The notes below the pieces were generated by a model. That model saw only the letters and a program-made list of their open reading frames with translations. It did not search any database and was not told where the DNA came from. Positions 3,001 to 17,237 of a DNA stretch of 64,000 nt are shown here, one piece after another. The stretch lies in assembly GCA_021613535.1 (NCBI GenBank), contig CP075496.1, positions 13,020,001-13,084,000 of the forward strand. The letters are read 5' to 3'. This stretch comes from Adineta vaga (taxonomy: Eukaryota; Animalia; Rotifera). A program made the translations under genes and the position numbers. How positions within the stretch are numbered: the stretch's first letter is position 1; each line of letters starts with the position of its first letter.

Positions 3001-6000
3001 CATGAATGTTTCTTTTTCTTTTCTTAAATCATTTCACATACAATAGGAATATGTTGTTGTACCGGTGTAAATACACTTGTTCTCATAAATAATGTAGCTG
3101 GTTGTTTTTCATTTTCACTTTGCGTCATACAATTAACTTCAATTTCAAATTCACGCATATCATCTCCACATGATAAAGTAAGTTTTGTTGAATAAATGCC
3201 TGGTTTATCAGCTTGAAAACGAAATGGTAATTTGACGGTTAATTCTTCTAATGGAAATGCTAAATTGTTTGGAACAAGAAAATTCGTTGTTGTTGATGAT
3301 GATTGAACTTTAAATTCTGGTAAACGTGAAAATGGATGTAAAGATTTCTTTGATGAATCAGGTAATTGTTCAGTTAAACCAAGTAAAGTTTGTTTTTGTC
3401 GTTCACGTTCTGACATACCCTTTAGTGATTTAAGGAATAAAATAAATCAAATAATTATTACATTTCAAAATCTTACCTGCCATCGAACGGCAACTAAAGC
3501 ATTATGTCGTTGATCGTTATTAACAGGAACATCAACATCAAATTGAGATGGTACACCAACAACTGCTCGAAAACGTACTTTTCCTGGTTTAGCTGAAAGA
3601 TCAATAAACAAAAAAAATATGGTTAAGATTGTTCTCAAAATCTTTTAAAGTGTCAAAAGAACGTTGTGTTATTTACCTCCTTTCTTTTGATCAACCTTTA
3701 TCGCCTTTTCACCTGATACAGGAAATAATCTATGACAAAAATAGATTTACCGACGTAATGAATATATAAATATTTGATTGAACATACTCAGGTTTCTTTG
3801 GAATACCTTCGATAAGAAAAAGAAATTCTCCGATTGTTTCATTCATAAAAACAAGTAAAGCTTCTCGACGTTTAGCTGTTGTGGCTATATATTGAACTTC
3901 ATATTGCGTTGTTTCATGAGCTTTTAATTCAATTGAAATTTGTTCAATAAAGAAACAATCATTTTCTTGATTGGATAATTTTTTATTTTTCTTTAAATTA
4001 CGAAATAATTCTTCGACACTTTCTTTCTTATTTCTACGAGAAGAGAATTCCATCAAAAATATTAGTTGAAAGAGTATGACTCACTGTTCAATTGATGTAG
4101 CTAATGGATTTTTCATTTCCTGTGTATTCTCTGATGAATTAACAATAGCTACTTGAAAAACTCCACCTTGATCAAATGGATTAGTTATATCAATAGTTGA
4201 TTTCGTTATTTTATAGATTGGTGCTTCGATTCGATGAATTTTCTAATGAAGAAAAAAAAACACATATATAAAATAGAAAATTCTTCTAGTTTCTATCGAA
4301 ATAAGTAGATTAAACAATCATCAATACAAAGATTACATGTGTTACAACAAATAACAAATCTGCTGAATGTGTGTGTGTTTTTACCTTTGTTGCATAGACA
4401 CACTATAGTAGAAAAGGAAAAAGAAGAAGAAGAAGAATTAGAGAGGAATACAGATCATTTCAATAACATGCATAAAAGAATAAATATCAATATAAATATG
4501 TATATATGGAATATCTTTCGTGCGTGCAATTTCTTACTTTAGCTGTAATTGTTTGTATTGAACCTTGTAAATTGAAAACCATTGGTGCACCTGAATATGC
4601 ATTAATTCGTTTGCTATTTAATAGAAGAACTGCATCCGTTGGTCGAAGTCGTTTATTTTTACATTGAACATTTACTAATAATGCAGCTTTACCAGGTATT
4701 GTTACTGTTGTACCTTTAACAAGTTGAAATTCATCAGCATCACGACCAATTACACTCATGGTATAAACTAATGCTTGGGGACTTGGATTAGTTATTTTGA
4801 CTTGTGATGTTGATGGTTCATGTAGAATACCTGTAAATTGTATTGTACCTCGTGAAAGATAATCAGGTAAATGTTCATATAGATATGAAACAAGTAAACA
4901 CATGCATATAGGATCAGCACGTGTTATATCTAATGCTTGAAGATCGTAGTCAAAACCAAGTTGTAATAAACAAGAAACAAGAATAAGAGCATTTTGTAAA
5001 TATTGTTCACCACTTTTTGGATGAACATACATTCGTTGTAATTGTGATTCAATCTAATAGAATAAAAAAAAAACGAATATTTTTTATCTTGAATTGGATA
5101 CTAAGATTTCTACGTACTAAAAATGGACAATAAGCACCTAGGACAGTACCAAGAACAATACTATCAACAAGATCAATATCAAAATTAACAATCCATCGTC
5201 CAGATGGCATATTTGCTAGAATCAAAAAGAAGAAAATCATTTTCTAAGATTTCTAGTTATCAATCAATTTAGTTTGTATTTTTAACTTCGATATCTTTCT
5301 AATAGTCAGCTGAATCGTACAAAATAAATTAAACTTACATTGTTCTCGATCTGCCCAAACTTGATCACGATAATTTGAATAACAATAATTGAGCCATGTT
5401 AATAAAATACGTTCACTAACCCCGTAAATATTACTTGATACTGGATCTGTATTGATATCAGGCATTGGTTTGTTTCGATCAGGTATACCTAATTGTTCAT
5501 ATGATCTTGGTGTTATACGACCAAGTACGAGACTCTACATAAGTAGAGAAAGAAAATTAGATTAGAAGAAATATTTTATCTAAGAAATTACTTTTAAAAT
5601 TTGCATCAAAACATCAATCCATGTCTTTTTCGAAACTGTTTCAAAGACTTCATTTGATAAATGAATAGGCTGTGTACGTTCCTGTGCAAATTCGCTATCT
5701 TTTTGTTCAGTTGGTACACTTGGTGATAGTGCAGTTTCACGCATTTGTACATAAACTTTATAAAGATCGGGTGGAAGTAAATATTCTGGACGAATAAATG
5801 CTGTACATGATCCTTGTGTTCTATTGAACAAACAAAAACAGGTGATTCGTGTTTTAATAAAAAAGAATCAAGAAAATACTTTAAAAATAATAATAATAAA
5901 CGATGTTGCCAAAGATATTGTTTTGTTGCTTCATCTTTCTTTTTCGGTGGAACAGAATTTTGTGGTATACCAGGTAATGCATGTCCACTCAAATATGTAA

Positions 6001-9000
6001 TCATATCGTAGATTGTTTTTTGTTCTTCTTTTGCCGTTTGTTTTGCTCCAACAGTTTCAAATTGTCGTCGAAATAATCCACTAGAAATAAACAATAAATC
6101 ATAGGTTAAATTCAAATTCAAAAATCTAAATTTACTTTCGAAATGATTGTGGAATTTTAACTGGATTAATATCTTTTGGCCAACCTTGATTTGCATACCA
6201 ACGTTCAAGAGTTGAAATAAGCCATTGAAGAGTTTTAGAATCTGCATCCAATGATGGTACTGAAGTTGCATGCAGTTCATTATGAAAAGCATCAGCATTA
6301 TGATATGTATGCGATAAACCAGAACGAATTCGATCGTAAGGTGTCTAAAATATTGACCAAATGGAAATTTTTCTCTAGGATAATCATATAAATCTCAGAA
6401 GCAGAGTTAGATCGAATCGAAATTGAATGAAAGATTATACTAGGAAGGATTCTATGAAGAATAGATAGAGTATCTGAGACTTAAAATGCATACGTTTTTG
6501 AAAATAAATTTTTCAAATCTAAAATTAGTTGAAACTGAAAGTCTTTCTTTTAATATCAATTAGTCTTGAAATATGTGAAAAAGAATTCTATTTGAAAATA
6601 TCTTTACCGGTGAACGTTCATTTCGATTTTGACCTGGCGTATGTTCATCCATTGATATTCCATCAGATGTATGATCTGTTTGATCAAATGTAGCACTGGT
6701 ACTTGTATTTGGTCGTGAATTTGAGCTTGTCACTGCTCGTTTTTGTACTAATAATGGTTCGCCTAAAACAAATAATTTCTTTTAAAAATCAATTTATTGA
6801 TTTCTATTGTTCATACCACTTGAATGACTTTCATCGGATTTAATTCGACTTCCTTTCATAATTTGACCTGGTTGAACAACAATTTGATAATCATTTTCTG
6901 ATTTCCATAAGAATGAATAACATGTAAAAATCGAATTATCAGCCGTAACAAAAACTTCATATTCAAAACTAAAATATGAAGAAAAAGAATGACATCAAGT
7001 GGAAAAATAAACAAAAGAACGAACCAATTTTTTTCTTCATCAATTATTTTCAAAACGATCTGTTCAGAAAAAGATTGACGACTGGTAAAGACTATTTTCA
7101 TAAGAAAATCTTGCGGTTTATCTGTATTAATTATAGCTGGTTCCATAAATGTTGCACGAAATTGATACGAAGCATCGACTGGTTTTTCATTTGCTAAGAT
7201 AATCAATCGTGTATTTCTAAACAAATGAATAATGGAATCGTTATGAAAGTGATCATTTCATAGAAAACTTACTTTTCAAAACCTTTCGGTCGTATACGAA
7301 CCGTTCCAGTACATTCAATATCTAATGGTACTGGTGGAAGAATTAAACGTTTCGGTTCAAAAATTAAGCTTGGTACTAATAGTTCTCCTGTTAAATCGAT
7401 ATATGTATAAGGTATTTGTTGATTATGATTAACATAGAGTGGTATACGTGTTTTATACGTTCCAGGTTTAATAGGAACAAAATTAATTATAAATGAAAAG
7501 ATTTCTTTTGGATCAATTTCACCTTCAGGTCCAATACTTGATGATGAACTAACAAATGCGGTTAATGATGAATGTAAAACACGAAATATATCATTATCTA
7601 ATGTTACATTATTACGTAAATCAAGTTGCCAATGAATTCGTTTTTTGCTATTATTAATTAATATGATTTCTTTACAATCATAATAAGCATCTTGTTTCAT
7701 CGCATTAAATTGTGTTGGATACATTTGAAAATGTAAATCTTTCGTAGATAATTGAAGACAATCAGATAAGGCTGTTGCATGAATGCGACGTCGTATGGGT
7801 GCATGTGATGGTTGTAAAGATTGTCGTTCAGTGGCACTTAATTCACGTTGAGGATGTGAAGCAGAACGAGGTTTTGAAGCTTGAGATAGACCTTCAACAT
7901 TTACTAACGGTGGACACGTACGAATAGGTAGAAAAAATTCATAGAACGCGATCTTTTATAAATGAAAAAAACAAAAACATCATAAAATCCTCAGTTGTTT
8001 TTCAAAAATAAAGAAACAAACTTCGGATGGAATAAGAACTAATTCGGCTTCAATCGATTCATTCGGTTGAACAGTAATACTATAGATTTGACCATTTTTC
8101 GTACAACATTCCTCATTACCTATTAATAACATTACAATAGAAAGATTAAAGTTGAAATTTAATTCAGTTTTACCAATGGGTGGATGTGTTTCAATCGTGA
8201 AATCTGGATATTTCGAGAGATTTATCTCCACAATACCTTTTACACTACCCTATGAAAACAGAAAGAAAGATTTTTGTAATCAAATGTTCTCTTTTTTTCA
8301 TCATTATTATGTATTAGTAACATGAAATAAAACCATGTGTTATTCTTATTATAAAGGTATATATACTTGTTTATTCTATAGATCAAATATATGATTTCTC
8401 ATGGGATTGAAAGAATATTATATCAACTAAGATAAGCATGTATATCGATGAAAATTCAATCTTTCAGACTATTTGAATTTATATGAATGAATAGAGAAGA
8501 TGATAATTATATAGTTTTTAGTTTTTATTTCTCATTTATATAATGAAAATAAAAGATTTTTTCAATCACCACCATTGACCATCGCACGAAAGACAGCTGC
8601 AGGTGTCACATCCACGAACATCAAGTTGGCTACCACAATGGCATGGAGCAAAGCATAAAGTTGGCATACATAATGGATTTGGAAATTTGATTGGAAATGA
8701 AATGATACGACTTTGTTCTTCAGCTGAAGCAGCAGGCTTGGCAGAAACCAAAAATGTTGCACAAAGAAGAAAAGAAGCAATGATAGCGATGATTTGGGTA
8801 CGCATATTTATTAGAATTTCGTCGAGAAACGAATGATATTTTCAAAATATAACTTCAGTATTTATATGAATTTAAACGAACCAGCTGGCAATTTTCTCAG
8901 ATATCTACACCTCCTCATATGTTATTTGATATTTTGATAGAATAAGTGCAAAAAAACAAGTAACAATCCAAGAATCATTCGATTAGTCTTTCATTTTATA

Positions 9001-12000
9001 GATTCAATCTAATCATAGTAGCAAAAGTAAAAATCAGGCTGCACTAAAGAAGAACTTTTTTTTCTTCTAAATATAACTAAATTCTTGCTATAGGCAACAT
9101 AGTACAAACATGATTTTCTATAAATATTCCCATCATTTCTTATCATTGATCAATGTTGATTGATATATATAAATACATGACGTCATCAAGATTATTTCCT
9201 ACATAAAACAATTCAATATGGACGCTTTTGAGGACAAATATTCTCTTTTTTTCCCCTATCATATCTAACTGATTATCATCTGTTGACATGTTAACTGTTA
9301 ATTTTCTTTTGATCATAAATAAATACACTCGTCGTTTTTCTTAACAACAATTATTATTTACAAACATGCAACCAATACGTATCTTAACTCTCTTCGTTCT
9401 TCTTACTCTTCTTTTAACATCGATTCTATCCGATATGAATATCAATGATCTCGATTTGACCAATGAATATCGTACAATATCAAAACGAGGTATCTTTAAT
9501 CATAAACATCATCATCAAGATCCTATGGTTCAAGGTGGATGTGTTCGATGTAAATTTAGCCTGATGCGTTGCTGTGCTCCCAATATTTGTGTCAAACGAC
9601 GTTTTCGAACGGATAAATGTCTTCGTGTAAAAGGTTAAGAAAGTAAAAAGCGTTTTCTTTTCTTTTCTAAATGAAATTCAATCTGTTTGCTTTGCTTTAT
9701 ACATTGAATTAAATAAAATAAATCGAGCGATTAATTGTATTTTCTTACCTTGTTTTCGATATGAAATTGTTTTGATGCTTTCATTAATATTGGTACACCA
9801 TTAAAATTGAATTCTGTTTCAGGAATTGTGATATCAGGTTCGATAACTTCACCTGTCATGCGAATTTCTTGTTCACGTTGTCCGAGAACTTTCAAACCAA
9901 ATTTAATATCGAATTTGATTAATTCAATTGGTGTTACTTCAATAGTAACACTCGATTGAGAACCAGCTGTGACAAGACCATTAGGTGGACTTATTACAAC
10001 ACCTGGACATGGATTTGGTTCAACAATCTAAAGATTTCTTTTTGAAATTACAAAACAAAACGAAATGAAGATATTTTTACTTCATAAAACAAATGATTGG
10101 AACCTTCATTAACAATTGTAAATGTTTGTTTTGATGTCATATTAATTGGTATTGTACCAAAATTGACTCGTTTTTCTGGAATACGAAATTTTCCTTTGCC
10201 AATTTGTGCAATACATTGAAGTGATAAAGTTGTTTCATTATATCCTTTCACTGATTGATTATATCCTGAAATTTTTCGTGAATCATTCGTTGATGATATA
10301 TGTAATGTAAAGAAATTCTCCAATGGTGCTTGTGTACTACCATACCAAACAACTTCGCAATCAATTGTTTGATAAGGTTCAATAATTCCTTAAAGAAGAA
10401 AAATATTTCTATTGTGATTGGAGTTTTTCTAAGCAAATGAACCTGTCGCTGGACGAATTGAAAATGCCGTTCCTTTCGGTCCAATAACCGGTTCCCAACG
10501 AAATTCTGCAGGGGCATTTAATGGATTATATAAATGCACAACTTTCCGAAATGAATCTTCAGCTAACAGATGTGGTAATGATCGTATGACAAGTTTTTCA
10601 GTTGATAATTTCACAGTTGGTACACGAACATCAGCAATAATTTTAACATAATGTCGATAGAAATTATTAATTACATAGGAAAGCGATCGTTGATAAAGAC
10701 CGATTTGCGATGGTTCAAATGTAATTGGAAATTGAACATGAGATTTACCTGGAATCACTTGACATAATGGTGATGTCATTTTTAGAGCAGCAGAATCGAC
10801 CTAAACATATTGATTTGATTATTATACCTCGATTTGAAAAATTTTACTTCAATTTGAACGACAATAAATTGATCAAGATTATTTAAAACGGATAGAAATT
10901 TTGTAACTGGTGCATTGACACAAACTTCACCGAAATCTAATTCTGCTGGACCTAAATTTCAAGAGAAAACACACACACATAAATTTACTCGATTTATCTT
11001 TGAAAAAGAAAAACTTGAACTTACCAACAACTACTTTGAATAATTGACTTGGTGATAATTGTATAGCACATTCTCTTTTTTCCTTAAAAGTTGTCGGAAC
11101 AGAATTGAGACCTTCTTTAACTGGTTTACTTAATAGTGTTTGTTCTTGTTCAGCTAATTCCGATGTTGTTGGTAAGCGAAATTTCCAATTAGGATACGGC
11201 GGAACTTTAATATAAGAGAAAATGATGAAAAAAACTGCTCACATCCGTGTCCTTCTTCTCTTTCTTCGCATTGCTCTTCATAGAGCATAATCACGCACAT
11301 CTAATTTTACGTTTCTATTTCTGCTTGTCATCTCTTTTTTTTACAAACTGAAAAAATCTTTTAATAACATAATATTCATCAGTTTATGACATTTCTAATA
11401 AGAAAATAAATGAGAGAGAGGAAAAAAAGAAGAAGGGTGTGTAGAGAAAAATAGAAAAATCATCGAAGCTTTCATCATATTAAGTAGAAATGACGTAGTA
11501 CATCTTATAGCTGAATTAAAAACTAGATTATTAGAGTCTGTGTAAGATTTCATAGACTTGATTATTCTCCAATCGTACGGGGGAAGTTCATTCTCGATGT
11601 CTTACCTGTTGATTTATTAACCGTTTTTTCTACTTCTTCGAGAGGAATTCGAGGTGATTCAAGATCATTACCAGGTTTCATTCCAAGATCAGTATTATTA
11701 TCAAATTTTTTTAATGCTCTAAATAATTTTTTGACAAAAAAAAGTAAACTTTTCTTTTATCATTTGCTTCGATTTTACTTTGTGCGTTGGCTTTCGTTTC
11801 GTTGATATCTTTGTTCATGAAATAAGTTATTATAATAATTATTATGTTGCTCAATTTGTTTTCTTTCTTTATCTGTATATGCGTAATCAGGATCAACATA
11901 ATTATATCGTTCTTCACGTGTAAATGGTGTTCTAAAAATAGAAAAAACCAGACAAATAAAATTGATTCAGATGTTCTTTTTTTTGAACATACGTAAAACT

Positions 12001-14689: not shown

Positions 14690-15445
14690 ATGAACAAATC
14701 AATGCAACGTTACACATCAGGCAGGATAAATATAATAAAACAAAAAAAAAAATAAATAAATATTGAATTTATTGTTTTCTCTTTAGATTCTTGGATTGAT
14801 ATTCAATCTGAAGAAAAACAAACTCCAACACCCGAAACAATTATGAGTTCATTTGCTGATCGAGATCTTTCGTCCAGTATGCATATCAATGAAAATTTAT
14901 TATTAGAGGCACAAAAAGAATCATCACGTGTTGGCTCAAAAAGTTCACAAAGTGATAGGTATTGAATTGACAATGATTTTTATCTATTTAAATAAATAAA
15001 TAAATTTTTATAGTTCATCACCAAAAAGTCCGAAAAGTCCGATTCAAACTGATCAAAACGTCGCGAATTGGATGTTATATTGGTCATCACGTATCGAATC
15101 TGAACCACCAAAGTAAAATTTTATTCGAGGTCTCGTTTTTTCCTGAAATTGATTTATTTAGAGAATGGAAATTCGTTCATCCAATCAATCGAAGTGTCCG
15201 CGATCAATTACTCTACGAAGATGAAGAAGAACGAGCAGCTGAAGAAGCAGCTAAAGCATTAGTTGAAAAAAAACGTATGCGTTATGTTCTTTTAAGTAAT
15301 TGTGCCAGTTTTCTTCTTGGCATGGGAATGTAAGTTTGTTATTTTGAATTTAACAAAACATATCTGACTTTCTTTTTTTAGAATGTACTTATGTTTACGT
15401 CGTTATCTTCGTATGAAAACACCTTATTTTTATGCATTAGATTAA
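14690..15445 (+). CDS. BNIP3: BNIP3/NIX-like mitophagy receptor (5 exons; absent from the ORF track)
   Basis: Spliced translation gives LIR SWIDI, ENLLLEAQKESSRVGSKSSQSDS (cf. EKILLDAQHESGRSSSKSS), WMLYWSSRIESEPPKEWKFVHP and a C-terminal TM anchor VLLSNCASFLLGMGIMYLCLRR. Confidence 0.88.
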
Positions 15446-16824
15446 TCAATTCATTCAATCACTACATTTTTATTTTGTACATACAAACATTTCTTTTACT
15501 CGCATATTTACAAGAAAAAAACATTCTTCTTCTTCTTCTTTTTTGCTTTTAAGTTTCTCTTTTATTTGCAAACAACAACAGCACTTCTGTACATACATAT
15601 AGATATCTACATAAAGAGTCATAACTCCTCTTTTAACACACATATATATATATATATACACCTACATTTACTGATGTTCAGAAGAACATTCCTTATTTTA
15701 TTTCGTTGATTATTATCACAATTGTTTGTTTTTTTTTCTTCTGTTATTTACTTCTTCTTGTTGTTGTTGTTGTTGTTTTGTTCATCAACGAGTTCGCATT
15801 TTATGTTTTGTGAATATTTCATGATATCGTGTTGGGTAACAATCGAACTAGACGTAGACGAACGGCTTGAAAAAAAAAGACAAAATTATTATTCATATAA
15901 GTGTACTATAATCGATTGTAAATATTAATGTTTGTTTTTCTCATATATAAAAAAAAGAACGAATGCATGAAAATATAACAAACAGGCATAGATGTGTTTT
16001 TTCTTTCGTCATTTTTTTTTCTTGTTCATATTTTGACATTACAAATAAAAATTTCATTCATTATTGAAATGAACGGTTCTGTTGTTAATCGTTGGGGGGA
16101 CCTTGTTCGGACCCATTTTGCATGTTTAATAGGCACAAATCGTTTCTTTCAATGAATTATTTGACAAGAATTTACATTGATAGTGAACAGATGTTTATTG
16201 AAGCAACATATTTCATATGAATTAAAGAATTCTATTGAGATATTGTAATTGAATAGATTATATTTTATGGTTTATTACATTACACGAAATAAATCAGGCA
16301 TAAGAAATTTTTGAGAGAAACAATCTGACTGAGTAAGTTATCCTCATTAGACGATTAATTATTTCATAATACATATGTCATACATCGTTATTATCTCTTC
16401 TTTTCTTGTTTGTCTATTCGTATAATCAAGGTAGAACATTCGTTAATACATGACACGTATAGGTGAGTCGATTTATATGTCTAAAATATTGATCCATTAA
16501 ATGTCTCGATTAGACATGTCAAATGTCAATGGATGACCCTTGTTTTTTTAAGTATTCTAATAGAATAAATGCTTGAGGTGTCTGATTTAAGTACGATAGT
16601 TTTTATCGAATGTCATACATTTTATTTACTTTCGTCAATCATTTATGTTGAATATAGACAGTCTTGAATATACTACTATATTCGTTTAGCTTTCAATTTT
16701 GATTGTTTGAATTTATATACAAAAATATATGTTTTCGGATTCACACGCTGTGAAACTGAATTTTTATTAATATTTCAGAAGTAAATGACAACGAATGTAT
16801 GTTTTTTTTCAAAAGTATAAATTT

Positions 16825-17237
16825 TTAAAAATAACGAAATTGTTGCGAAGGATAAGTATAGTATGGATTAGTTTGGGGAGCAGCAAAATTGTTTGTGCCA
16901 TAGAATTGACCATTGTTGGCATAACCCATCGATGAATGACCATATACTCCTGGATATCCGCGAGCAACATCAGGAGCACGACCGAGAATACCATCACCGT
17001 TAATATCTCTTCCTGTAGCGCGTTCAAGTCTACTTAGATATCCTAAAATAAAAGAAAAAATTCATTTAAAACATTATCATAGCGAGAAAATCTATCGACA
17101 CTAACCTTCTCCACCGATATAGCCATCTCCATTGAGATCAATTCCATATCTTCTTTCAAGCATGTTCATTTGTCGTGCTAGAAATATCAAGATAAAACTA
17201 TTTCATTTCATCGAATATCAATAAACTTACCCTGCAT
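16825..17237 (-). CDS. 98-aa protein with two LExxxGxD(L/I)NGDGx(I/L)G repeats and a Gly/Tyr/Asn/Gln-rich tail (3 exons)
   Basis: Exons 17237-17231, 17177-17106 and 17042-16825 splice in frame via GT-AG: MQARQMNMLERRYGIDLNGDGYIGGEGYLSRLERATGRDINGDGILGRAPDVARGYPGVYG...YYTYPSQQFRYF*. TATAAAA at 17310-17304. Confidence 0.8.

What the first reader, a model, noticed from the sequence alone, without database searches (positions are those of the whole stretch)
8250..9748. Head-to-head pair of secreted defence-type peptide genes hidden inside one intron of the ciliary gene CFAP47
Seen: CFAP47 introns are mostly ~50-60 nt, but one phase-0 intron (GT at 9748, AG at 8251-8250; ...IENK|GSVKG...) is 1.5 kb. 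It holds two intronless small genes in divergent orientation: an antistasin-type inhibitor (8805->8566, same strand as the host) and a cationic 6-Cys prepropeptide (9366->9638, antisense). They are separated by 560 bp and each has a signal peptide and a downstream AATAAA. Inference: a co-regulated two-component secreted module (antimicrobial/toxin-like effector plus a protease inhibitor that could protect it or block pathogen proteases), possibly expressed from ciliated epithelium. Annotation pipelines would usually miss both genes.
Basis: partly seen in the sequence, partly recalled or inferred. Interest (0 to 1): 0.85.

Follow-up and report, generated by a model that had tools for sequence, protein, structure and literature searches.

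The report
Two peptide genes inside rotifer intron
Two small genes for likely secreted, cysteine-rich peptides sit head to head inside one spliced intron of the cilia gene CFAP47 in bdelloid rotifers; both are transcribed and conserved, one likely blocks proteases, the other is a likely antimicrobial (or signalling) peptide of an apparently unnamed family, and nothing yet shows that they work together.

Summary
A 1,499-nt phase-0 intron (8250-9748) of CFAP47 is spliced out in cDNA-type contigs. Inside it, two intronless genes are transcribed in opposite directions with their own poly(A) tails. Both are under purifying selection (omega 0.23, p<1e-7). The same nested head-to-head order occurs in other bdelloid loci, and accession numbers suggest the two genes are neighbours in Adineta steineri and Rotaria sordida too.

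The 79-aa peptide resembles one antistasin module with an extra Cys pair, but scores below Pfam's cut-off. The 90-aa prepropeptide belongs to a family (36 clusters; Cx2Cx6CCx4Cx9C) with no Pfam match; its nested clade has a His-rich head and a highly conserved +9 Cys domain.

The 'co-regulated defence module' is unproven. Each gene has its own TATA box, the whole region is colinear anyway, one locus keeps the 6-Cys gene beside a broken inhibitor gene, and the conserved mature peptide is not an arms-race pattern. New lead: the best-conserved intergenic block is an E-box/TC-box (PTF1-like) site beside the inhibitor's promoter, pointing to gland cells rather than ciliated cells. Verdict: real, undescribed in my searches, a new variant of known kinds.

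The parts
9749..10027 (-). CFAP47 exon upstream of the long intron (ends ...IENK)
   Evidence: RNA-type contig piece and joint; weak HYDIN/CFAP65-type Ig match; 88% identical in L001
8250..9748 (-). CFAP47 phase-0 intron, 1,499 nt, hosting both nested genes
   Evidence: Skipped as one GT-AG joint in X13 and X14; ends checked; same site in L001 with 1,221 nt, and about 1.84 kb in L003
8174..8249 (-). CFAP47 exon downstream of the long intron (starts GSVKG...)
   Evidence: Joints
8566..8805 (-). Gene 1: 79-aa antistasin-like peptide; hydrophobic leader (about residues 1-22), 8 mature Cys as Cx4Cx3CxCGx7Cx2CxCx2C
   Evidence: 12 close relatives at 59-72% plus one frameshifted; omega 0.23; transcript contigs 8504-8814
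8584..8670 (-). Cys core of gene 1 (residues 46-74); putative P1 Phe52, P2' Pro54
   Evidence: Pfam Antistasin positions 1-26 of 26 at E 0.53, below cut-off; all 8 Cys invariant in 24 rows; F/Y in 22 of 23 and Pro in 22 of 23; the P1 position is recalled, not from a call
8504..8529 (-). Gene 1 poly(A) signal (8524-8529) and cleavage sites (8504/8507), on the host's sense strand
8859..8866 (-). TATA box of gene 1
   Evidence: matching element in L001 and L002, a variant in L003, lost in L004
8882..8899 (.). Conserved E-box + 6 nt + TC-box-like element (PTF1-like), 16 nt upstream of the gene 1 TATA box
   Evidence: Best-conserved 18-mer of the intergenic region, 33 of 36 vs at most 29 in 30 shuffles; exact pattern in window, L001 and L003, imperfect in L002 and L004; only match in 64 kb, 0.42 expected
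9318..9325 (+). TATA box of gene 2
   Evidence: a matching element lies upstream of the start in L001-L004; the longest transcript contig starts at 9348
9366..9638 (+). Gene 2: 90-aa prepropeptide (leader, acidic pro-region, KR at residues 40-41, His-rich head, Cx2Cx6CCx4Cx9C domain, C-terminal Gly), antisense to CFAP47
   Evidence: 12 homologues at 49-66%; omega 0.23; transcript contigs 9348-9739
9489..9635 (+). Predicted mature peptide of gene 2: 49 aa, K+R-D-E = +9, likely amidated
   Evidence: dibasic site in 20 of 20, His-rich head in 19 of 20, terminal Gly signal in 15 of 20 nested-clade rows; AlphaFold pLDDT 70, four short strands
9712..9739 (+). Gene 2 poly(A) signals (9712, 9717) and cleavage sites (9734/9739), ending 9-14 nt from the host's splice donor

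Best explanation
These are two real nested genes, each with its own TATA box and poly(A) site and spliced out of CFAP47 in one intron, that likely encode gland-secreted peptides acting separately: a likely chymotrypsin/subtilisin-type protease inhibitor, and a likely KR-cleaved, amidated cationic peptide that would bind a conserved microbial surface target. Shown: splicing of the host intron, divergent polyadenylated transcripts, purifying selection, and the same nested order in other bdelloid loci. Inferred: secretion and processing (hydrophobic leaders, KR site, terminal Gly); inhibitor function with aromatic specificity (antistasin-type Cys spacing, F/Y at the presumed P1); antimicrobial action (+9 charge, His-rich head, disulfide core); expression in secretory cells rather than ciliated cells (PTF1-like site beside gene 1; a same-strand nested gene with its own poly(A) site would interfere with CFAP47 if both were active in one cell). 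The pair likely stays together because both landed in one intron before the Adineta and Rotaria lineages split and the region does not rearrange.
For: Splicing and tails. Selection: omega 0.23 for both genes, 2dL 49.9 (5 sequences) and 31.0 (3 sequences) against omega=1; host exon 0.055. Order: L001 has both host flanks; L003 has the downstream flank and the donor; L005 the upstream flank; L002 the 5' part of gene 1 at its contig end plus the donor; L004 a broken gene 1. R. sordida has 4 of 4 accession pairs 14-19 apart and A. steineri 2 pairs 10 and 20 apart, with matching longest-contig sizes (indirect). Separate function: two TATA boxes about 450 nt apart, with the best-conserved element next to gene 1; in L004 gene 1, its TATA box and its E-box are decayed while gene 2 is intact; colinearity over about 20 kb. 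Guamerin, with Met at P1, inhibits chymotrypsin- and elastase-like proteases (PMC6265900, passages).
Against: No activity was measured. Gene 1 never reaches the Pfam cut-off (13 of 24 rows at E<=1, best 0.062), and Pro at P2' (22 of 23) is unusual for canonical inhibitors (recalled). For gene 2, a conserved mature domain also fits an endogenous hormone or neuropeptide, and mussel MgCRP-I peptides with the same Cys array and positive charge showed no antimicrobial or toxic activity (PMC4558851, abstract). The PTF1-like motif was chosen after seeing the alignment and is imperfect in L002, where gene 1's visible 5' part looks intact. L004 is one short metagenome contig and may be a decaying second copy. 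Head-to-head genes 560 nt apart can share enhancers, and transcript contigs of both appear in the same run X13, X14 and X17.
Confidence: 0.5

Rival explanations
1. Co-regulated two-component secretory cassette: one shared enhancer, probably the PTF1-like element, drives both genes in the same gland cells, and the inhibitor protects the cationic peptide or disarms microbial proteases.
For: Head-to-head order with a 468-604 nt spacer in all 5 regions where both starts are visible; likely adjacency in two named genera; both under selection; transcript contigs of both in X13, X14 and X17; a GATA-type block mid-spacer is shared by 4 of 5 regions.
Against: Linkage equals background colinearity. L004 has lost gene 1 but kept gene 2. 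The conserved element lies 77 nt from gene 1's start and about 470 nt from gene 2's. A. steineri lists gene 2 on 9 contig places but gene 1 on 2, although small genes are easily missed.
Confidence: 0.25
2. Gene 2 is an endogenous signalling peptide (neuropeptide or hormone) acting on a rotifer receptor or channel, and gene 1 is a non-inhibitory disulfide peptide; neither is a defence factor.
For: Dibasic cleavage site plus amidation signal. Mature domain 85% conserved against 39-56% for leader, pro-region and His head; Cys-domain dN 0.05-0.19 vs dS 0.13-0.89. ASIP, a signalling knottin, is among the weak fold hits (E 8). The same Cys array occurs in insect hormones (PMC4558851 section 20).
Against: A +9 charge on about 32 residues and a variable His-rich head are more typical of surface-binding peptides (recalled). 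The wider family spans 36 clusters at 50% identity with charges from +1 to +10, which is more than a single ligand usually shows, though the taxa of most are unknown.
Confidence: 0.2
3. The nested units matter mainly as cis-regulators of CFAP47: antisense transcription from gene 2 and the sense-strand intronic poly(A) site of gene 1 shut off or truncate CFAP47 in non-ciliated cells.
For: Gene 2's transcript ends 9-14 nt from the host donor, and gene 1's poly(A) site is on the host strand. Nested genes can alter host transcription in C. elegans (PMC12274878, abstract).
Against: Both reading frames are under purifying selection at the protein level. No contig joining gene 1 to downstream CFAP47 exons, or CFAP47 exons to gene 1's poly(A) site, was listed among the joints shown (tables cut).
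Confidence: 0.04
4. Chance ORFs in a long intron.
For: None found.
Against: Poly(A)-tailed contigs, homologues in named rotifer genomes, omega 0.23 with p<1e-7.
Confidence: 0.01

Closest known systems
Nested (intronic) protein-coding genes of animals, e.g. Drosophila, mammals, C. elegans ceh-10 in polq-1 (PMC5174743, PMC8467205, PMC12274878; abstracts)
   Same: Short intronless genes inside a long intron of a large host gene, with their own promoters and poly(A) sites.
   Different: Two unrelated genes head to head, one sense and one antisense, filling an intron about 26 times the host's median intron, in an animal with 50-70 nt introns, and kept across bdelloid genera.
Antistasin family (Pfam PF02822): guamerin, hirustasin, bdellastasin, poecistasin, Hydra antistasin repeats
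   Same: Six Cys align over the whole 26-position Pfam profile; secretory leader; a hydrophobic residue at the presumed P1, as in guamerin (Met, PMC6265900).
   Different: Score below cut-off in all 24 rows; 8 mature Cys rather than the 10 of leech domains (PMC7851590, PMC6265900 passages); one extra Cys pair; Pro at the presumed P2'; a single module; activity unknown.
C-C-CC-C-C prepropeptides: ICK toxins (psalmotoxin, Hi1a, framework VI/VII conotoxins), gurmarin, ASIP, and mini-granulin conotoxins (TxVIIB, PMC11035057)
   Same: Cys array with an adjacent pair, signal-pro-mature layout, dibasic cleavage, amidation signal; weak sequence hits to gurmarin and a jingzhaotoxin (E 0.6-5); weak fold hits (E 6-9; Z 2.2 to the granulin-like alphaD-VxXXB domain).
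   Different: First loop only 2 residues, last loop 9; His-rich head; no significant Pfam, PDB or fold match; the mature domain is conserved, not hypervariable.
Mussel MgCRP-I family (PMC4558851; abstract and section 20 read)
   Same: Lineage-restricted, cationic, six-Cys C-C-CC-C-C prepropeptide family of unknown function.
   Different: [quoted passage not shown] No homology test against MgCRP-I sequences was run.
PTF1 sites (Ptf1a/E-protein/RBPJ) of pancreatic and sea-urchin exocrine genes (PMC4880809 section 17; PMC7197352 passages)
   Same: An E-box followed about one helical turn later by a TC-box-like hexamer; the 6-nt gap equals that in the mouse Ptf1a autoregulatory site shown as sgRNA1.
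   Different: TC-box has T instead of C at one place; binding untested; presence of Ptf1a in rotifers not tested; PTF1 also acts in neurons.

Membership tests
Nested protein-coding genes | Whole gene lies inside an intron that is spliced from the host mRNA | tested here: met
   Joint skipping 8250-9748 in X13 and X14; separate contigs inside it
Nested protein-coding genes | Own transcript ends and coding constraint | tested here: met
   Poly(A) tails on opposite strands; omega 0.23; 5' ends cannot be read from contigs
CFAP47 (host) | Orthology to CFAP47/FAP47 rather than HYDIN or CFAP65 | tested here: met
   3 of 3 exons hit only CFAP47/FAP47 in PDB sequences, in colinear order; Pfam gives generic ASH/Ig families
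Antistasin family (PF02822) | Six-Cys module matching the full profile | tested here: met
   Residues 46-71 align to positions 1-26 of 26; Cys invariant in 24 rows
Antistasin family (PF02822) | Score at or above the curated cut-off (21.2 bits) | tested here: not met
   11.3 bits, 12.1 bits for the mature part; 13 of 24 rows match at E<=1, best E 0.062
Antistasin family (PF02822) | Ten-Cys, five-disulfide domain of the leech inhibitors | tested here: not met
   8 mature Cys vs 10 (PMC7851590, PMC6265900 passages). Hydra-type repeats also have only the C-terminal Cys set, so this excludes only the leech subtype
Antistasin family (PF02822) | Antistasin fold | tested here: inconclusive
   Model pLDDT 49, too poor for a fold search
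Antistasin family (PF02822) | Canonical serine-protease inhibition through the P1 loop | not testable with these tools
   F/Y at the presumed P1 in 22 of 23 rows, Pro at P2' in 22 of 23; position assigned from recall
Inhibitor cystine knot (knottin) | C-C-CC-C-C array | tested here: met
   Cx2Cx6CCx4Cx9C; 34 of 36 representatives carry the full frame (31 with x9, 3 with x8; 2 truncated)
Inhibitor cystine knot (knottin) | I-IV, II-V, III-VI disulfides with one bond threading the ring | not testable with these tools
   Connectivity is not reported; AlphaFold mis-assigned it for TxVIIB (PMC11035057 passages)
Inhibitor cystine knot (knottin) | ICK fold rather than mini-granulin | tested here: inconclusive
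   Foldseek E 6-9 to ICK peptides, none confirmed at Z>=2 (0 of 7); wide search Z 2.2, rmsd 2.2, 29 aligned to a granulin-like conotoxin domain; short loops favour mini-granulin (PMC11035057)
Toxin/AMP-type arms-race peptide families (conotoxins, MgCRP-I) | Conserved pre-pro region with hypervariable mature peptide | tested here: not met
   In 12 nested-clade rows the Cys domain is 85% identical without Cys; signal 56%, pro 47%, His head 39%. Not tested across the wider family
Antimicrobial peptides | Measured killing or growth inhibition; induction by infection | not testable with these tools
   Charge +9 only; could not be mapped to the infection data of PMC11258130
Bidirectional (shared) promoter pair | Divergent starts under 1 kb apart | tested here: met
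   560 nt between start codons; 468-604 nt in relatives
Bidirectional (shared) promoter pair | Co-expression driven by shared elements | not testable with these tools
   Only contigs were available; their depth cannot rank genes
PTF1 binding site | E-box and TC-box one to three helical turns apart | tested here: met
   8882-8899; exact in 3 of 5 orthologous spacers; definition from PMC4880809 and PMC7197352
PTF1 binding site | Binding by Ptf1a/E-protein/RBPJ; factors present in this animal | not tested
   No genome held; no rotifer Ptf1a search run

The most novel reading that the evidence does not exclude
Bdelloid rotifers carry an ancient exocrine defence cassette hidden in a cilia-gene intron: one PTF1-type (Ptf1a/RBPJ) element drives, in gland cells, a new His-tagged, short-loop six-Cys antimicrobial peptide and a new eight-Cys inhibitor of fungal subtilisin-type proteases. 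That would add a gene-encoded peptide arm to an animal whose known antifungal response is horizontally acquired biosynthetic genes, and extend the pancreas-type secretory programme to rotifers.
Probability: 0.15. Interest if true: 0.75.

Novelty: new variant of a known kind. Interest (0 to 1): 0.45.

Why it matters
It names two conserved bdelloid peptide families that I did not find described, both short enough to synthesise and assay. The six-Cys family has an unusual Cx2Cx6CCx4Cx9C frame across 36 clusters, which is a direct test case for the knottin versus mini-granulin question. The conserved E-box/TC-box site makes a testable prediction about a pancreas-like secretory programme in rotifers. 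The locus also shows how an animal with 50-70 nt introns splices around a same-strand gene with its own poly(A) site. Nesting itself is common, so without activity or co-regulation data this remains a good lead, not a new system.

Tried and rejected
No whole genome was held, so paralogues and the second (homeologous) copy could not be searched; L001's record could not be searched either. No run is on record as RNA; I treat X13-X20 as cDNA because they skip GT-AG introns and carry poly(A) tails. Contig depths differ greatly between the two genes and the host, but the tool states that they cannot rank genes, so they are not used. X18 and X20 showed cover on gene 2 only and X19 on gene 1 only; missing cover is not used as evidence. 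No contig covered 8812-9264. Complex prediction of the two mature peptides gave no answer (score 0.02, alignments not used). The gene 1 model was too poor to use (pLDDT 49). PDB sequence searches for gene 1 found nothing credible: 0 hits, chance hits, and a pacifastin-related peptide at E 1.5, rejected as only the CxxCxC motif. Viral searches were negative: 0 of 88 pattern hits confirmed for gene 1, and no BFVD match at E<=0.001 for gene 2. The two prokaryotic hits L006 and L007 are the C-terminal ends of long Bacteroidetes proteins matching over 20 residues, rejected as chance, so I found no sign of horizontal origin. Pfam gave no consistent family for gene 2 (Conotoxin in 2 of 46 rows, E 0.006). 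The ESM Atlas did not complete. CRE and NF-kB-like motifs in the spacer are not conserved. No second nested peptide gene was found in six other long gaps of CFAP47, and no further family member in the window. In PMC11258130, passages and 12 of 16 supplementary files were searched with no mention of antistasin, knottin or CFAP47; the 4 unsearched files and its expression tables could bear on induction, but their gene ids cannot be mapped here. Two primary PTF1 papers were not held. Earlier scan findings: none relevant.

Full report
Organism and host. The window is about 30% GC with short introns. The only named homologues of the two peptides are from bdelloid rotifers: Adineta steineri, Rotaria sordida, R. 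sp. Silwood2 and R. magnacalcarata. I therefore treat it as a bdelloid and did not try to identify the record. No whole genome is held. The host is CFAP47: three exons, one upstream and two downstream of the intron, hit only mouse CFAP47 and Chlamydomonas FAP47 in the PDB sequences, in colinear order, at E 2e-8 to 6e-32 for the mouse chain.

Observation. Both ORFs are at the stated coordinates, 560 nt apart. Contigs from runs guessed to be RNA skip GT-AG introns exactly; X13 and X14 skip 8250-9748 as one joint. Of the 20 introns I listed from the joints shown, 17 are 47-73 nt, median 57; 27 joints were not shown. Separate contigs cover each nested gene. X17 has poly-T before 8504/8507, that is a tail on the minus strand; X17 and X18 have poly-A after 9734/9739 on the plus strand. 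The genome is not A- or T-rich at those places, and AATAAA lies just upstream of each. Divergent, polyadenylated transcription is thus shown. Starts and levels cannot be read from contigs.

Conservation. All 5 metagenome loci found with gene 2 fit the same layout as far as they reach. L001 has both host flanks and a 1,221-nt intron at the same codon. L003 has the downstream flank, both genes and the donor. L005 has the end of gene 2 and the upstream flank. L002 has gene 2, the donor and the 5' part of gene 1 at the contig end. L004 has an intact gene 2, while gene 1 has a stop at codon 4 and a frameshift. In R. sordida 4 of 4 accessions of gene 1 lie 14-19 numbers from one of gene 2; in A. steineri 2 pairs lie 10 and 20 apart; longest-contig sizes match. 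This suggests adjacency but is indirect, and nesting in CFAP47 was not checked there. A codon model gives omega 0.23 for each gene, rejecting omega=1 (2dL 49.9 on 5 sequences, 31.0 on 3); a host exon gives 0.055. Simple NG86 ratios are higher (0.38-0.89 for gene 2, 0.31-0.35 for gene 1), mostly from the variable pre-pro part.

Gene 1 (79 aa). A hydrophobic leader is followed by Cx4Cx3CxCGx7Cx2CxCx2C, with all 8 Cys invariant in 24 aligned rows, many of them near-copies. Six Cys align over the whole Pfam Antistasin profile but at 11.3 bits against a cut-off of 21.2; 13 of 24 rows match at E<=1, none at the cut-off. The residue after the second Cys, P1 in this family by my recall, is Phe or Tyr in 22 of 23 sequences. 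Guamerin, with Met at P1, inhibits chymotrypsin- and elastase-like enzymes (PMC6265900, passages). This points to aromatic specificity. Against it, P2' is Pro in 22 of 23, unusual for canonical inhibitors (recalled), and the structure model was unusable (pLDDT 49). It likely works like an antistasin-type inhibitor; membership is not established.

Gene 2 (90 aa). The layout is leader, acidic pro-region, KR, His-rich head, Cx2Cx6CCx4Cx9C, C-terminal Gly; the predicted 49-aa mature peptide has charge +9. A profile search found 36 clusters at 50% identity, 34 with the full frame. I looked up 10 of them; only one has a name (R. sordida), so the range of the family is unknown. The nested form falls in a 21-row clade with 100/100 support (tree of 54 rows, P0033 and P0044 left out, bootstrap not fully settled); a His-rich head occurs in 19 of 20 near rows and 3 of 36 others. 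Pfam gives no consistent family. The model (pLDDT 70, four short strands) gives only weak hits: ICK peptides at E 6-9, none confirmed, and a granulin-like conotoxin domain at Z 2.2. Short loops favour a mini-granulin fold in framework VI/VII peptides (PMC11035057, passages), so 'knottin' is open. Within the clade the Cys domain is 85% identical, the rest 39-56%. That is the reverse of mussel MgCRP-I, which has a hypervariable mature part and showed no antimicrobial or toxic activity (PMC4558851, abstract and section 20). A conserved target, microbial or endogenous, is more likely than an arms race.

The spacer. Each gene has its own TATA box, at 8859-8866 and 9318-9325. The best-conserved 18-mer among window, L001 and L003 is 8882-8899 (33 of 36 letters; 30 mononucleotide shuffles reach at most 29). 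It is an E-box, six bases, then a TC-box-like hexamer. PTF1 sites are an E-box and a TC-box one or two turns apart in pancreatic and sea-urchin digestive-enzyme genes (PMC4880809, passages and section 17), and the 6-base gap matches the mouse site shown as sgRNA1 in PMC7197352 (passages). The pattern occurs once in 64 kb with 0.42 expected, so its presence alone is unremarkable; its place and conservation are the signal. It is exact in 3 of 5 spacers and decayed, with the TATA box, in L004, where gene 1 is broken. It is also imperfect in L002. I chose the motif after seeing the alignment, and PTF1 acts in neurons as well.

Is it a module? For: the constant head-to-head order, a short spacer, and contigs of both genes in X13, X14 and X17. 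Against: window and L001 are colinear over about 20 kb including unrelated genes, so adjacency is the background; L004 keeps gene 2 without gene 1; and the conserved element sits by gene 1. L004 is one short contig and could be a decaying second copy. Co-expression could not be measured. On cell type, Drosophila nested genes diverge from their hosts (PMC5174743, abstract), mammalian ones do not (PMC8467205, abstract), and C. elegans shows frequent co-expression (PMC12274878, abstract). The literature therefore does not decide; the same-strand poly(A) site and the PTF1-like element tilt me towards gland cells.

Verdict. I put 0.5 on two separately acting gland peptides (inhibitor; cationic microbe-binding peptide), 0.25 on a co-regulated cassette, 0.2 on an endogenous signalling role, 0.04 on cis-regulation of CFAP47 and 0.01 on chance. 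Searches for bdelloid with knottin, antistasin, antimicrobial peptide plus cysteine, and nested genes (listings only), and a broader one (30 of 100 listed), showed no description of either family or of this locus. The library lacks most subscription journals. Novelty: new variant of known kinds; interest 0.45.

Noticed in passing
window 4244-4538 (minus strand, CFAP47): RNA-type contigs of X15 and X16 join these places with 16 other letters between, which suggests a 16-nt microexon in CFAP47.
   Followed up: no
L004 60-306: Gene 1 is broken (early stop, frameshift) with its TATA box and E-box decayed, while gene 2 is intact: a natural loss of one partner.
   Followed up: partly
proteins P0021-P0054: A diverse wider family of Cx2Cx6CCx4Cx8-9C prepropeptides with long acidic pro-regions, mostly without the His head and often with Gly-Lys ends; taxa unknown.
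   Followed up: partly
window 16812-17061 (minus strand): A short Gly/Tyr-rich frame with a DxNxDG (EF-hand-like) motif, conserved with L001; one run, X15, shows very deep contig cover at 16486-17000.
   Followed up: no
window 14768-15445 (plus strand): A small spliced gene head to head with the CFAP47 5' end, conserved in L001 and covered by RNA-type contigs.
   Followed up: no
window 9139-9160: A GATA-type plus TGTTGAT block in mid-spacer is shared by window, L002, L003 and L004 but is unclear in L001; a candidate element for gene 2 or for both.
   Followed up: partly
L006 and L007: Bacteroidetes proteins ending in a short double-Cys tail just before a PorP/SprF-like gene (label recalled); a chance match to gene 2.
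   Followed up: partly
runs X19 and X20: Runs labelled as other organisms hold 99%-identical contigs of gene 1 or gene 2, probably rotifers present in those samples.
   Followed up: no
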